A DNA stretch of 9,630 bases from Candidatus Odinarchaeota archaeon. Lineage in GTDB: Archaea > Asgardarchaeota > Odinarchaeia > Odinarchaeales > Odinarchaeaceae. Below the pieces are notes generated by a model, which had not been told where the DNA came from, ran no database searches, and was given only the letters and a program-made list of their open reading frames with translations. The stretch lies in NCBI GenBank assembly GCA_038826135.1, contig JAWBON010000044.1, positions 1 to 9,630 on the forward strand. Direction: 5' to 3'. This document shows, one piece after another, positions 224-5,540 of the stretch (positions are counted from its first letter, which is position 1; each line of letters begins with the position of its first letter). The position numbers and the translations under genes are program-made.

Positions 224-361
224 ATGGCAAAGCTCGATGAATTGCCACGCAAAGGCGTGTTGAAAGGCGGCTTCAGAGTGAAAGATTTGGGGGTTTGCTA
301 TTATAGGGGTGGTGTTTATTGCAGTTTTTCCCTGGAACCAGGGAGGCTTGGTTTACCATAA
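224..361 (+). other. Possible 5' start of a GC-rich-genome gene broken at a compositional junction (45-codon ORF, probably not a real protein)
   Basis: GAGGAG RBS at 215-220, ATG at 224, 13 nt after the pyrE stop. Reads MAKLDELPRKGVLKGGFRVKDLGVCYYRGGVYCSFSLEPGRLGLP* and overlaps the RBS and start of the 319 gene out of frame. No recognisable motif. Confidence 0.3.
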
Positions 362-1281
362 TTAAAGAAAAAGTTCTCGAGTTAGCTGAGAAGATTGAAA
401 AAGAGGATTTTTATTTACCAGACTCTTTAAAGGATGTCTACAAGAAAAAGATAGTATATGTTTTAGAGTTTATATTAGAGATAATTAGAGTGAATAGAAG
501 CGCTGTTTTAGAAGATATATTGTATTCTCCGAAGGCGCGTGGAATTTATAAAATCAGTGATCAAGCGGAATTAGAGCGTATTCTACAATATGTGGAGGGT
601 GTGATCCAGGCGCCCAGAGAGGACTTCAGATTATTTGAGGATATTCCAACGCCTATTTACGGCCCTCTTAAAATAGAGTATTTTTCACCTTTAAGCCCCG
701 CGGATAAGATAATTAAATTAAACGAGAAGAAGACTATTCGCTTCATAGATCCGTTGATGTATAGGCTTAACTTCTTGGACTGTAAAGCTGATAAAGTTTT
801 AGTGACTGGTTTCGATTTTGAAGAGCTGGTGGAAAAAAATGTTGCGGAGAAGCTTAATTGTTTACTTATAGGATTAGGTAACCCTATTGCTAGGTCTACT
901 AGGCATCTTTTAAGAAGATTGAACCTGGAGCTTAATTTACCTGTTTATATTTTAACTGATGCTACACCTGCAGGATTATTACAGTCTGTAAGTCTTATCA
1001 GAGGCCCATCGGATCCCGCGCCCCAATTCCTGCAAAAATTTATAGTCAGCCATGCTCTGTGGGTGGGTGTTTCCATAGGAGATTTACAGGAAAAGTTTAA
1101 GACTCTCCCCCTCAGCGCTGAAGATGTGAAAATCTTGGAACATATTAGAGAAAGCGCTTTGTCTAAATTACCGCCTTATAAACAGGAATTAGAATTATAT
1201 GACGAAAAAAAGTTTAAATCCGGTTACACAGAGCTTAAAGAGCTAGATATAGTCGGGTATATTTCCGCTAAAATACCATAG
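319..1281 (+). CDS. DNA topoisomerase VI subunit A / Spo11-family paralog with degenerate catalytic motifs
   Basis: TTG start with GGGGTGGTG RBS at 306-314. Colinear motifs match Top6A: VLEFILEII..N.SAVLEDILY (cf. TLRELYY), DQAELERIL...REDFRL, IYGPLKI, ADKVLV (cf. AEFVLVVEK), NCLLI..G.P...STRHLLRRLNLELNLPVYILTDATPAG (cf. TRRFL..L...LPVY..TDGDPWG), WVGV...DL, PLSAEDVKILE, YKQELEL....K, YISAKI. Confidence 0.82.
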   Translation: MQFFPGTREAWFTIIKEKVLELAEKIEKEDFYLPDSLKDVYKKKIVYVLEFILEIIRVNRSAVLEDILYSPKARGIYKISDQAELERILQYVEGVIQAPREDFRLFEDIPTPIYGPLKIEYFSPLSPADKIIKLNEKKTIRFIDPLMYRLNFLDCKADKVLVTGFDFEELVEKNVAEKLNCLLIGLGNPIARSTRHLLRRLNLELNLPVYILTDATPAGLLQSVSLIRGPSDPAPQFLQKFIVSHALWVGVSIGDLQEKFKTLPLSAEDVKILEHIRESALSKLPPYKQELELYDEKKFKSGYTELKELDIVGYISAKIP

Positions 1282-5012: not shown

Positions 5013-5153
5013 TTAACATCAGCCACCGTTTTGAAAATGAATTAACTCATTAATAAAATATTAGTAAAATTAACGTAAAACCCTAAAAACTTTAATATAG
5101 TAGGAGTAAACCCTATAAAAAAATAATAATCCTTCCTTTATGTTTGTTTAACG

Positions 5154-5540
5154 GTGTTGAATTTGCCTGACATTAAAGTTAATCTAGATAATATAGCCAT
5201 GCGTATTAAAGAAATTTTAAATAATACGATAGATGGAAATAGCTTTTTACCAACTTTATGGAAGATAAGGTCGGAAGTAGAGTATTTAACAGGTATTCTA
5301 AGCCTTGACCTGGAAGGAAACGTTGAATTCGAGAAAATAACAAGACCTCTCAGATTAAAGAAAGAGGAGAAGAATAAAAATAATATCATTAACCAGATAA
5401 ACAAAGTTGTGCTAGAATTATCCAATAATAAGAGCGCGGATAACCTGCATGTTTTTGAAAAATTATGGAAATTAAGGGAGTTTACAACCATACTTCTAAG
5501 ACTTATGGAGCCTCCTATTAAAAAAGATAAGGCTAATTAA
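5154..5540 (+). CDS. Hypothetical all-helical protein with a duplicated LWKxR motif
   Basis: 128-codon ORF filling the gap between Nudix and purA, with amphipathic helical composition. LWKIR (res. 35-39) and LWKLR (res. 104-108). Start uncertain (GTG 5154, TTG 5157 or ATG 5199). Confidence 0.7.
   Translation: MLNLPDIKVNLDNIAMRIKEILNNTIDGNSFLPTLWKIRSEVEYLTGILSLDLEGNVEFEKITRPLRLKKEEKNKNNIINQINKVVLELSNNKSADNLHVFEKLWKLREFTTILLRLMEPPIKKDKAN

What the first reader, a model, noticed from the sequence alone, without database searches (positions are those of the whole stretch)
319..1281. Top6A/Spo11 paralog with Tyr retained but TOPRIM metal-binding residues lost
The protein aligns with Top6A along its whole length. 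Tyr69 (TAT 523-525) sits at the catalytic position of the RxxYY/RDIFY motif, but the upstream Arg is Glu. The TOPRIM Glu of VEK/IET is Gly164 (808-810), DxD has become D-A-T (958-966), and the C-terminal KAE is KSG. The frame is intact with a good RBS, which suggests selection rather than decay. In Top6A/Spo11 dimers each active site pairs the Tyr of one protomer with the TOPRIM of the other (established). Inference: a heterodimer with a normal Top6A could keep at most one active site, acting as a nickase or dominant-negative regulator, or the protein could be a non-catalytic DNA-binding or Top6B-scaffolding partner. No top6B is adjacent in this window. If the host is Asgard, this bears on how Spo11 paralog diversification began.
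Basis: partly seen in the sequence, partly recalled or inferred. Interest (0 to 1): 0.72.

Follow-up and report, generated by a model that had tools for sequence, protein, structure and literature searches.

The report
Catalytically dead Top6A paralogue, Odinarchaeum
This Asgard archaeon (genus Odinarchaeum) keeps, under purifying selection, a stand-alone copy of the DNA-cutting subunit of topoisomerase VI that has the enzyme's fold but has lost almost every element needed to cut DNA, so it most likely works by binding rather than cleaving.

Summary
Tyr69 is kept. Lost or changed are the Arg before it (Glu65), the TOPRIM Glu (Gly164), the second Asp of DxD (D-A-T) and the C-terminal Glu (Gly302). 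The ~24-residue WH-domain 'latch', essential in M. mazei Topo VI, is also deleted.

All nine known orthologues (52-99% identical, all labelled ones Odinarchaeia) share these losses, and one has Phe for the Tyr. dN/dS is about 0.10-0.15, roughly twice that of the resident Top6A. The genome also has one canonical top6B-top6A pair and no second top6B.

Trees place the dead clade on a very long stem inside an archaeal-type 'second copy' Top6A lineage. That lineage is still catalytic and paired with its own Top6B in a sister Odinarchaeia family. The dead clade is not close to the resident, eukaryote-like Top6A, so the link to Spo11 origins is not supported.

Best reading: a selected pseudoenzyme, relic of a second Topo VI, that acts by binding. 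The partner (Top6B, Top6A, DNA or other) is unresolved.

The scan had already found this family on four other windows. I found no description of an inactive Top6A in the literature searched.

The parts
306..314 (+). Shine-Dalgarno-like GGGGTGGTG, 4 nt upstream of the TTG start
   Evidence: Read directly from the sequence. GGTG-type motifs sit before the TTG or GTG starts of the orthologues as well.
319..1281 (+). CDS of the 320-aa catalytically dead Top6A paralogue (TTG start, TAG stop)
   Evidence: The orthologues start at the same residue with TTG or GTG.
328..351 (+). Family-specific N-terminal motif F4-P-G-T-x-E-A-W11. Seven of its eight positions are invariant in all nine orthologues and it is absent from canonical Top6A. 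Residues 1-5 are disordered in the model.
   Evidence: invariant columns; pLDDT below 50 for residues 1-5
340..399 (+). N-terminal helix (residues 8-27). It is the counterpart of the Top6B-binding helix of Top6A: EKVLELAEKI here against M. mazei EKLLEIAEKI.
   Evidence: H8-27; alignment to Mm 14-29; role of the helix from PMC9665070
400..447 (+). Short linker (residues 28-43) in place of about 46 residues of canonical Top6A. The WH 'latch' (M. mazei 44-67, PSRSxxN...) is deleted.
   Evidence: (the conserved P, R and N columns are gaps in all nine). Latch function from PMC13040014.
448..633 (+). Winged-helix / 5Y-CAP domain (residues 44-105). Glu65 (511-513) replaces the catalytic/clasp Arg. 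Tyr69 (523-525) is at the catalytic Tyr position.
637..660 (+). Loop E107-D-I-P-T-P-I-Y114, the counterpart of the M. mazei minor-groove loop 146-148. It is nearly invariant within the family, but with a new proline-rich sequence.
   Evidence: loop role from PMC13040014
793..1245 (+). TOPRIM domain (residues 159-309)
   Evidence: PF21180 over residues 167-309
808..810 (+). Gly164 at the position of the TOPRIM metal-binding Glu (Mm E202), next to a 2-residue deletion
958..966 (+). D214-A-T216 in place of the DxD metal ligands (Mm D254/D256). The family pattern is [DE]-x-[TS].
1003..1029 (+). Remodelled loop G229-PSDPAPQ-F237. It is 2 residues longer, acidic and proline-rich, at the counterpart of the M. 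mazei major-groove segment 270-273 (AIKS).
   Evidence: segment role from PMC13040014
1216..1224 (+). K300-S-G302 in place of K-A-E. The Glu is Mm E342, part of the acidic tetrad and of the R102/E342 clasp. Across the family this position is G/E/T/S.

Best explanation
The gene encodes a functional but non-catalytic Top6A-fold protein, a pseudoenzyme.

Origin. It descends from an archaeal-type 'second copy' topoisomerase VI A subunit. That type is still catalytic and encoded next to its own Top6B in a sister family of Odinarchaeia and in other Asgard archaea. In the Odinarchaeum lineage the cognate Top6B is no longer present. The A subunit then went through a burst of change: loss of the Arg, the TOPRIM Glu, the second Asp and the clasp Glu, deletion of the DNA latch, and gain of an invariant N-terminal FPGTxEAW motif. 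Since then it has been held under purifying selection.

What is shown: the fold, the losses, the selection, the phylogenetic origin, and the co-existence with one canonical Topo VI.

What is inferred: it cannot cleave or religate DNA, so it works by binding.

My committed guess for the mode:
- About 40%: it still docks through its retained N-terminal helix and WH domain on the only Top6B in the cell. It would then form cleavage-incompetent Topo VI-like assemblies (A'2B2 or A.A'.B2) that modulate or repurpose the ATP-gated clamp.
- About 35%: it is a stand-alone dimer that binds DNA or another partner through its remodelled groove.

The confidence given is for the core claim: selected, non-catalytic, relic of a second Topo VI.
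For: Fold: Pfam Toprim 4.4e-19; PDB Top6A hits 4.5e-15 and 4.6e-13; AF2 pLDDT 89.8; Foldseek TMq 0.81 to M. mazei Top6A over the whole length.

Loss of catalysis:
- R to E, TOPRIM E to G/S/T with a 2-aa deletion, and DxD to [DE]x[TS] in 9 of 9 orthologues. All 46 other relatives that are neither broken nor mis-aligned keep R, Y, E and the first Asp, and 44 of them keep the second Asp.
- The Tyr is Phe in one orthologue.
- The latch is deleted. Its mutation abolishes M. mazei Topo VI activity (PMC13040014).

Selection:
- dN/dS is 0.095-0.147 at unsaturated dS, against 0.060-0.075 for the resident Top6A in the same genome pairs.
- No frameshifts or stops in any orthologue checked at DNA level.
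- 108 invariant columns, including a new N-terminal motif.

Origin:
- The dead clade is monophyletic (100/100) with a stem of 2.2-2.5 substitutions per site.
- It lies inside a 97/97 clade with the P0012/P0013 type and the 449/464-aa copies of Odinarchaeia family f2.
- An AU test rejects union with the resident Top6A clade, p = 0.011.
- The f2 copies sit in top6B-top6A operons.

Genome content: one canonical top6B-top6A pair and no second top6B in a 93%-complete genome.

Distribution: 4 of 4 genomes of the genus, 0 of 3 of the sister family.

B-binding helix retained: 8 of 10 residues identical to M. mazei.
Against: - No biochemical or expression evidence exists.
- Glu168 is invariant four residues after the lost TOPRIM Glu, and an acidic residue persists at 214. 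A non-canonical metal site is therefore not formally excluded.
- Several DNA-contact elements of Top6A are lost or remodelled: the latch, the Lys of loop 227-229, and segment 270-273. This argues against canonical G-segment binding and leaves the ligand open.
- The resident Top6B is of the eukaryote-like type and the paralogue comes from another lineage (about 20% identity to the resident Top6A). Cross-assembly is therefore not a given.
- The long stem makes exact placement within the second-copy lineage less certain.
- The AU group was named after seeing the tree.
Confidence: 0.72

Rival explanations
1. Stand-alone binder. After losing its Top6B, the protein became an autonomous (probably dimeric) DNA- or protein-binding factor unrelated to Topo VI function. 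It would use the remodelled former active-site groove and the new N-terminal motif.
For: - The gene is monocistronic, flanked by opposite-strand genes, and never next to a top6B in eight loci.
- Family-specific invariant residues cluster in former groove elements: E65, EDIPxP, LT[DE]x[TS]P, GxxExxPxFLQKF.
- Basic helix residues R192/R195/R199/R200 are retained.
- The paralogue derives from a lineage other than the resident Topo VI.
Against: - The Top6B-binding N-terminal helix is retained.
- Three of the four DNA-contact elements described for M. mazei Top6A are lost or changed.
- Net charge is about neutral.
Confidence: 0.35
2. The protein pairs with the resident Top6A, giving a half-site nickase or a dominant-negative dimer.
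For: - Top6A active sites are composite, with the Tyr of one protomer and the TOPRIM of the other (established).
- Tyr69 is kept in 8 of 9 orthologues.
- Dead paralogues often regulate their active relatives (general knowledge).
Against: - Tyr is Phe in one orthologue. The Arg is Glu and the latch is deleted in all of them, so the only possible composite site is unlikely to be competent.
- Only about 20% identity to the resident Top6A, which belongs to the other half of the Top6A tree.
Confidence: 0.12
3. It is still an enzyme, a nuclease or topoisomerase that uses non-canonical residues such as Glu168 and Asp/Glu214.
For: Glu168, D/E214, D255 and D269 are invariant, and the Tyr is mostly kept.
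Against: Only one of the four acidic-tetrad residues remains. The Arg is reversed in charge, the latch is deleted, and there is Phe at the Tyr position in one orthologue.
Confidence: 0.04
4. It is a decaying pseudogene or mis-annotation with no function.
For: Loss of the catalytic residues. The start codon is non-ATG.
Against: - Intact frame in nine orthologues down to 52% identity.
- omega 0.10-0.15.
- The same TTG/GTG start and SD-like motif is conserved.
- High-confidence fold.
Confidence: 0.03

Closest known systems
Archaeal topoisomerase VI subunit A (Top6A; M. mazei 2Q2E/9O0G, M. jannaschii 1D3Y, S. shibatae 2ZBK)
   Same: The domain order and fold are the same over the whole length: N-terminal helix, WH/5Y-CAP, beta linker, TOPRIM (TMq 0.81). 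The Tyr position, the RSTRxxxRRL helix and the Lys of the C-terminal KAE motif are conserved.
   Different: It lacks the Arg (Mm R102), the TOPRIM Glu (E202), the second Asp (D256), the conserved Glu (E342) and the 44-67 latch. It has no adjacent Top6B. It has a new N-terminal FPGTxEAW motif.
Asgard 'second copy' Top6A of archaeal type (P0012/P0013/P0011 types; extra Top6A/B pairs reported in PMC12680538)
   Same: These are the nearest relatives by sequence (31-39% identity) and by tree (97/97 clade). Shared motifs are PREDF, CKADKV and ELNLPVYI.
   Different: Those proteins keep all catalytic residues and the latch, and are encoded directly after a Top6B. This family sits on a stem about ten times longer and is solo.
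Eukaryotic Spo11 / eukaryote-like Asgard Top6A (the resident 404-aa copy)
   Same: Same superfamily and fold (Spo11 core complex 8URU, E 3.7e-10).
   Different: It belongs to the other half of the Top6A tree. The resident Top6A clade, not this protein, is sister to SPO11. An AU test rejects joining them. Spo11 is catalytic.
Mini-A / Topo VIII A-like proteins of mobile elements (Takahashi et al. 2020, PMC7671362)
   Same: Solo type IIB A-like proteins without an adjacent B subunit.
   Different: Those are described as encoded by viruses and plasmids. This gene sits in conserved chromosomal housekeeping synteny and branches within cellular Top6A. I did not compare the sequences directly.
JetD/MksG nuclease of Wadjet
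   Same: A Top6A-like TOPRIM-containing fold (7TIL, 8B7F are weak hits).
   Different: TM is only 0.25-0.32. JetD is an active nuclease within a condensin-like system, and no such genes lie nearby.

Membership tests
Top6A/Spo11 superfamily (fold and homology) | TOPRIM domain of the Top6A/Spo11 type (PF21180) above the curated cut-off | tested here: met
   69.5 bits against a cut-off of 24.1, E 4.4e-19
Top6A/Spo11 superfamily (fold and homology) | 5Y-CAP / winged-helix domain (PF04406 TP6A_N) | tested here: inconclusive
   The sequence score of 17.6 bits is below the cut-off of 26. The domain is nevertheless modelled with pLDDT around 90 and superposes as part of the whole-length match to Top6A.
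Top6A/Spo11 superfamily (fold and homology) | Whole-length structural similarity to solved Top6A | tested here: met
   9o0g_A E 6.6e-18, TMq 0.81; 1d3y, 2zbk and 2q2e also match
Catalytically competent type IIB topoisomerase A subunit | Catalytic Tyr (Mm Y106) | tested here: inconclusive
   Tyr69 is present here and in 8 of 9 orthologues, with Phe in P0008
Catalytically competent type IIB topoisomerase A subunit | Conserved Arg four residues before the Tyr (Mm R102) | tested here: not met
   Glu65 in 9 of 9 orthologues; Arg in all 46 other relatives that are neither broken nor mis-aligned
Catalytically competent type IIB topoisomerase A subunit | TOPRIM Glu (Mm E202) | tested here: not met
   G/S/T at this position, with an adjacent 2-aa deletion, in 9 of 9 orthologues
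Catalytically competent type IIB topoisomerase A subunit | DxD metal-binding motif (Mm D254/D256) | tested here: not met
   D-A-T here; [DE]-x-[TS] in 9 of 9 orthologues
Catalytically competent type IIB topoisomerase A subunit | C-terminal Glu of the acidic tetrad and clasp (Mm E342) | tested here: not met
   Gly302 here; G/E/T/S across the family. Role from PMC13040014.
Catalytically competent type IIB topoisomerase A subunit | WH-domain latch (Mm 44-67) required for activity | tested here: not met
   Net deletion of about 30 residues. The conserved P, R and N columns are gaps in all nine orthologues.
Topoisomerase VI holoenzyme (A2B2) | A cognate Top6B encoded with it or elsewhere in the genome | tested here: not met
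   There is only one Top6B, adjacent to the resident Top6A on another contig. No second match was found in the 93%-complete genome. No top6B neighbours the gene in eight loci.
Topoisomerase VI holoenzyme (A2B2) | Physical binding to Top6B | not testable with these tools
   The one complex-prediction job gave no verdict. This needs biochemistry.

The most novel reading that the evidence does not exclude
The dead A-like protein is a bona fide non-catalytic subunit of the eukaryote-like Topo VI of Odinarchaeum, docking on Top6B and/or pairing with Top6A. That would give an asymmetric or cleavage-silent ATP-gated DNA clamp. It would be a prokaryotic mirror image of the eukaryotic TopoVI-like meiotic complexes, in which the B subunit has degenerated, and a natural regulator of type IIB cleavage.
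Probability: 0.2. Interest if true: 0.75.

Novelty: new variant of a known kind. Interest (0 to 1): 0.5.

Why it matters
Natural, selected, catalytically dead members of the Top6A/Spo11 family are, as far as I could find in the held literature, undescribed. Extra Top6A/B copies in Asgard archaea have been reported (PMC12680538), but that paper's main text has no statement that any copy is inactive.

The protein is a compact natural experiment. It has lost every element recently shown to control cleavage in Topo VI: the Arg-Glu clasp, the acidic tetrad and the latch. It keeps the fold and the Top6B-binding helix.

If it assembles with Topo VI, it would be the first known protein regulator of a type IIB topoisomerase built from the enzyme's own subunit. 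If it is autonomous, it shows how a topoisomerase subunit is recycled into a binding protein.

It does not bear directly on the origin of Spo11, because it comes from the archaeal-type lineage and, among GTDB species genomes of the class, is confined to one genus.

Tried and rejected
- Complex prediction of the paralogue (alignment A4) with the C-terminal 242 residues of the resident Top6B (alignment A3) gave a score of 0.00. This is no verdict, neither for nor against binding.
- Search for RNA evidence: no RNA holder is listed. Two hot-spring 'metatranscriptomic WGS' runs (probably DNA) hold short low-depth contigs over parts of the gene, and one RNA-Seq run holds none. Nothing can be said about expression.
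- The metagenome-contig scan with family patterns found no further members. The genome-contig scan returned only two already known genomes.
- P0033 (E-A-T at the DxD position) looked like an intermediate form. It is a P0011-type protein whose C-terminal part is out of frame or truncated.
- Positional orthology with the second-copy operon of family f2 was not shown. The genes downstream of the f2 top6A (a KaiC-like ATPase and a 152-aa ORF) have no similarity to the 113-aa or PLD-like neighbours here.
- Net charge and pI do not separate the dead family from canonical Top6A.
- Rfam and tRNA scans of the window found nothing.
- Pfam gives no family for the conserved small flanking ORFs.
- The protein-atlas search only recovered Top6A/Spo11 clusters.
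- The supplementary text of PMC12680538 is not held.
Full report
**1. Observation**

window:319-1281(+) is an intact ORF of 320 codons. It starts at TTG, 4 nt after a GGGGTGGTG motif.
- Glu65, GAA 511-513
- Tyr69, TAT 523-525
- Gly164, GGT 808-810
- D214-A-T216, 958-966
- K300-S-G302, 1216-1224

The protein is a Top6A homologue beyond reasonable doubt:
- PF21180 (Top6A/Spo11 Toprim) scores E 4.4e-19. The TP6A_N model scores only 17.6 bits, under its cut-off of 26.
- M. jannaschii and M. mazei Top6A are hit at 4.5e-15 and 4.6e-13.
- An AlphaFold2 model built on 45 sequences has mean pLDDT 89.8 and pTM 0.86.
- Foldseek matches it over its whole length to M. mazei Top6A (9o0g_A, E 6.6e-18, TMq 0.81). 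Next come 1D3Y, 2ZBK and 2Q2E, then the yeast Spo11 core complex.

**2. What is lost**

The functional map of M. mazei Top6A comes from PMC13040014. It names:
- the catalytic Y106
- the R102/E342 'clasp'
- the acidic tetrad E202/D254/D256/E342
- the WH 'latch' (residues 44-67), whose triple mutant is inactive
- DNA-bending loops 146-148 and 227-229
- the groove segment 270-273

The alignments map the paralogue onto these elements as follows:

| M. mazei element | Paralogue |
|---|---|
| R102 | Glu65 |
| Y106 | Tyr69 |
| E202 | Gly164, next to a 2-residue deletion |
| D254 | Asp214 |
| D256 | Thr216 |
| E342 | Gly302 |
| Latch 44-67 | Removed by a net deletion of about 30 residues between the N-terminal helix and the WH domain |
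| Lys of loop 227-229 | Gly |
| Segment 270-273 | Replaced by a loop 2 residues longer, acidic and proline-rich |

In a 63-sequence alignment, all 46 other relatives that are neither broken nor mis-aligned keep R, Y, E and the first Asp of DxD. 44 of them also keep the second Asp, and the other two have Asn.

What is retained:
- the fold
- the N-terminal helix that in Top6A binds Top6B (EKVLELAEKI against M. mazei EKLLEIAEKI; role per PMC9665070)
- the RSTRxxxRRL helix
- the Lys of KAE and a set of structural Gly/Pro/Asp residues

**3. The family**

A word-indexed search of 5.8 billion proteins gave nine distinct family members, 52-99% identical. Every one that carries a useful label is Odinarchaeia, and one is Candidatus Odinarchaeum yellowstonii LCB_4.

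An exhaustive HMMER scan of 1.84 billion cluster representatives found a single representative of the family (374 bits). The score then drops to 120 bits. Scans of metagenome and genome contigs added nothing new.

All nine members share R-to-E, E-to-G/S/T and DxD-to-[DE]x[TS]. The KAE Glu is variable. One member (P0008) has Phe at the Tyr position. The family has 108 invariant columns. These include a new N-terminal motif, F-P-G-T-x-E-A-W, that canonical Top6A lacks. Its first residues are disordered in the model, as expected for a partner-binding peptide; that reading is inference.

The start codons checked are TTG (window, L004, L005, L008, L009) or GTG (L006).

**4. Selection**

For the three genome pairs with unsaturated dS (0.87-1.01), dN/dS is 0.095-0.147. 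The resident canonical Top6A in the same pairs gives 0.060-0.075. The paralogue therefore evolves about twice as fast at the protein level but is clearly under purifying selection. No orthologue checked at DNA level has a stop or frameshift.

**5. Genome content and distribution**

The window is a whole 9.6-kb contig of a 1.26-Mb, 93%-complete genome. That genome has one canonical top6B (611 aa) - top6A (404 aa) pair on another contig and no second Top6B.

In the GTDB class there are seven species genomes:
- All four of the window's genus carry the dead paralogue (70-100% identity).
- The three genomes of the sister family do not carry it.
- Instead, two types of complete top6B-top6A operon were found in the sister family. 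One encodes a 449/464-aa A with a 526/532-aa B. The other encodes a 363-aa A with a 496-aa B. Only G002 showed both.
- The sister family has no orthologue of the 404-aa resident type.

My class search narrows that to one genus among species representatives, plus more divergent metagenomic Odinarchaeia (P0008-P0010).

**6. Origin**

In a 57-sequence ML tree the dead clade is monophyletic (100/100) on a stem of 2.2 substitutions per site. It lies in the half of the tree that does not contain the resident Top6A.

The resident Top6A groups with a Promethearchaeota protein and is sister to a clade containing insect SPO11/Mei-W68. This matches the published view that the conserved Asgard Top6A is the eukaryote-like one and that extra copies are related to other archaea (PMC12680538).

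An AU test rejects uniting the dead clade with the resident clade (p = 0.011). The caveat is that the group was named after seeing the tree.

A focused 34-sequence tree puts the dead clade inside a 97/97 clade. That clade also holds P0012 (Hermod-/Prometh-/'Odin'-labelled, 443 aa), P0013 (Jordarchaeum) and the 449/464-aa copies of the sister Odinarchaeia family. The stem is 2.46, against 0.35 or less for its sisters.

The simplest history is as follows. The ancestor carried a second, archaeal-type Topo VI. In the Odinarchaeum line the B gene was lost. The A gene was stripped of catalysis, shortened and re-specialised.

**7. Context**

In eight loci the order is: ThiC - small ORF (-) - paralogue (+) - 113-aa ORF (-) - PLD-like 150-aa ORF (-). 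The gene is flanked by opposite-strand genes, so it is monocistronic. These genomes are broadly syntenic, so I draw no functional link from this order.

**8. Mechanism**

Shown: the fold, the losses, the selection, the origin, and co-existence with one Topo VI.

Inferred: no cleavage.
- Only one of four acidic-tetrad residues is left.
- The Arg is reversed in charge.
- The latch is gone.
- The Tyr is dispensable in one lineage.

The binding mode is open.
- The retained B-binding helix and the general behaviour of pseudoenzymes favour docking on the only Top6B, giving cleavage-silent or asymmetric Topo VI-like assemblies. I put this at about 40%.
- The solo gene, the foreign lineage of the resident Topo VI (about 20% identity), and the remodelled but conserved groove with a newly gained motif favour an autonomous binder (about 35%).

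One complex prediction with the Top6B C-terminus gave no verdict. No RNA data were found.

**9. Novelty**

Extra Top6A/B copies in Asgard archaea are published. I found no statement of an inactive Top6A in that paper's main text, nor in reviews of archaeal topoisomerases and of TopoVI/Spo11 evolution.

This scan had already flagged the same family in four other windows. I confirmed their core reading independently and add four points:
- descent from the second-copy lineage
- the latch deletion mapped on the 2026 cryoEM work
- the restriction to one genus among species representatives
- the comparison of selective constraint with the resident Top6A

Noticed in passing
window:1-300: The first ~300 bases of the contig are GC-rich (48-70% in 50-bp bins, against 22-40% in the next bins). 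They have no similarity to the region upstream of the orthologues in other Odinarchaeum genomes, where homology starts at about position 301. Those genomes have a small ORF and ThiC there. Frame 1 encodes the C-terminal end of a protein with a CPLC motif. This is possibly a chimeric contig end or a rearrangement, so the native promoter of the paralogue cannot be read from this window.
   Followed up: partly
window:1729-2175 (-): The syntenic 148-aa PLD-like protein (PLDc_2, 5e-08) has a degenerate HKD motif. It reads N/R-x-R/K/H...D...SSAxLS instead of HxK...D...GSxN, and this is conserved in five orthologues. It is therefore a second apparently catalytically dead nuclease-fold protein, two genes away from the dead Top6A.
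   Followed up: partly
window:1296-1637 (-): A 113-aa ORF with no Pfam family is conserved in the same position (convergent with the paralogue) in all eight loci examined.
   Followed up: partly
window:319-321 and L004:8001, L005:8001, L006:979: The start codon of the paralogue is TTG or GTG in all six orthologues checked at DNA level, never ATG. Each is preceded by a GGTG-type motif. This may indicate low translation initiation.
   Followed up: partly
L021:8957-11888, L022:3671-6620, L023:8007-10589, L024:7161-9743: The three genomes of the sister Odinarchaeia family lack the eukaryote-like Top6A. Between them they carry two types of archaeal-type top6B-top6A operon; only G002 showed both. 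The longer A (449/464 aa) has an ~80-residue N-terminal extension that looks like a winged helix. It is followed by a KaiC-like ATPase gene and a 152/168-aa ORF.
   Followed up: partly
P0019, P0023, P0026, P0027, P0031, P0034, P0066: The long (540-900 aa) Top6A hits are intein-containing Top6A proteins. The inteins sit at different points in or just before the TOPRIM domain, and some carry LAGLIDADG domains.
   Followed up: yes
window:8970-9629 (-): An ERCC4 + HhH nuclease domain runs off the contig end. In Odinarchaeum LCB_4 the syntenic gene is a 753-aa Hef-type helicase-nuclease.
   Followed up: partly
window:5154-5540 (+) / 5138-5491 (-): Two overlapping ORFs lie on opposite strands. The + strand 128-aa ORF is the one called in the syntenic loci of the other genomes, and it has no family.
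   Followed up: no
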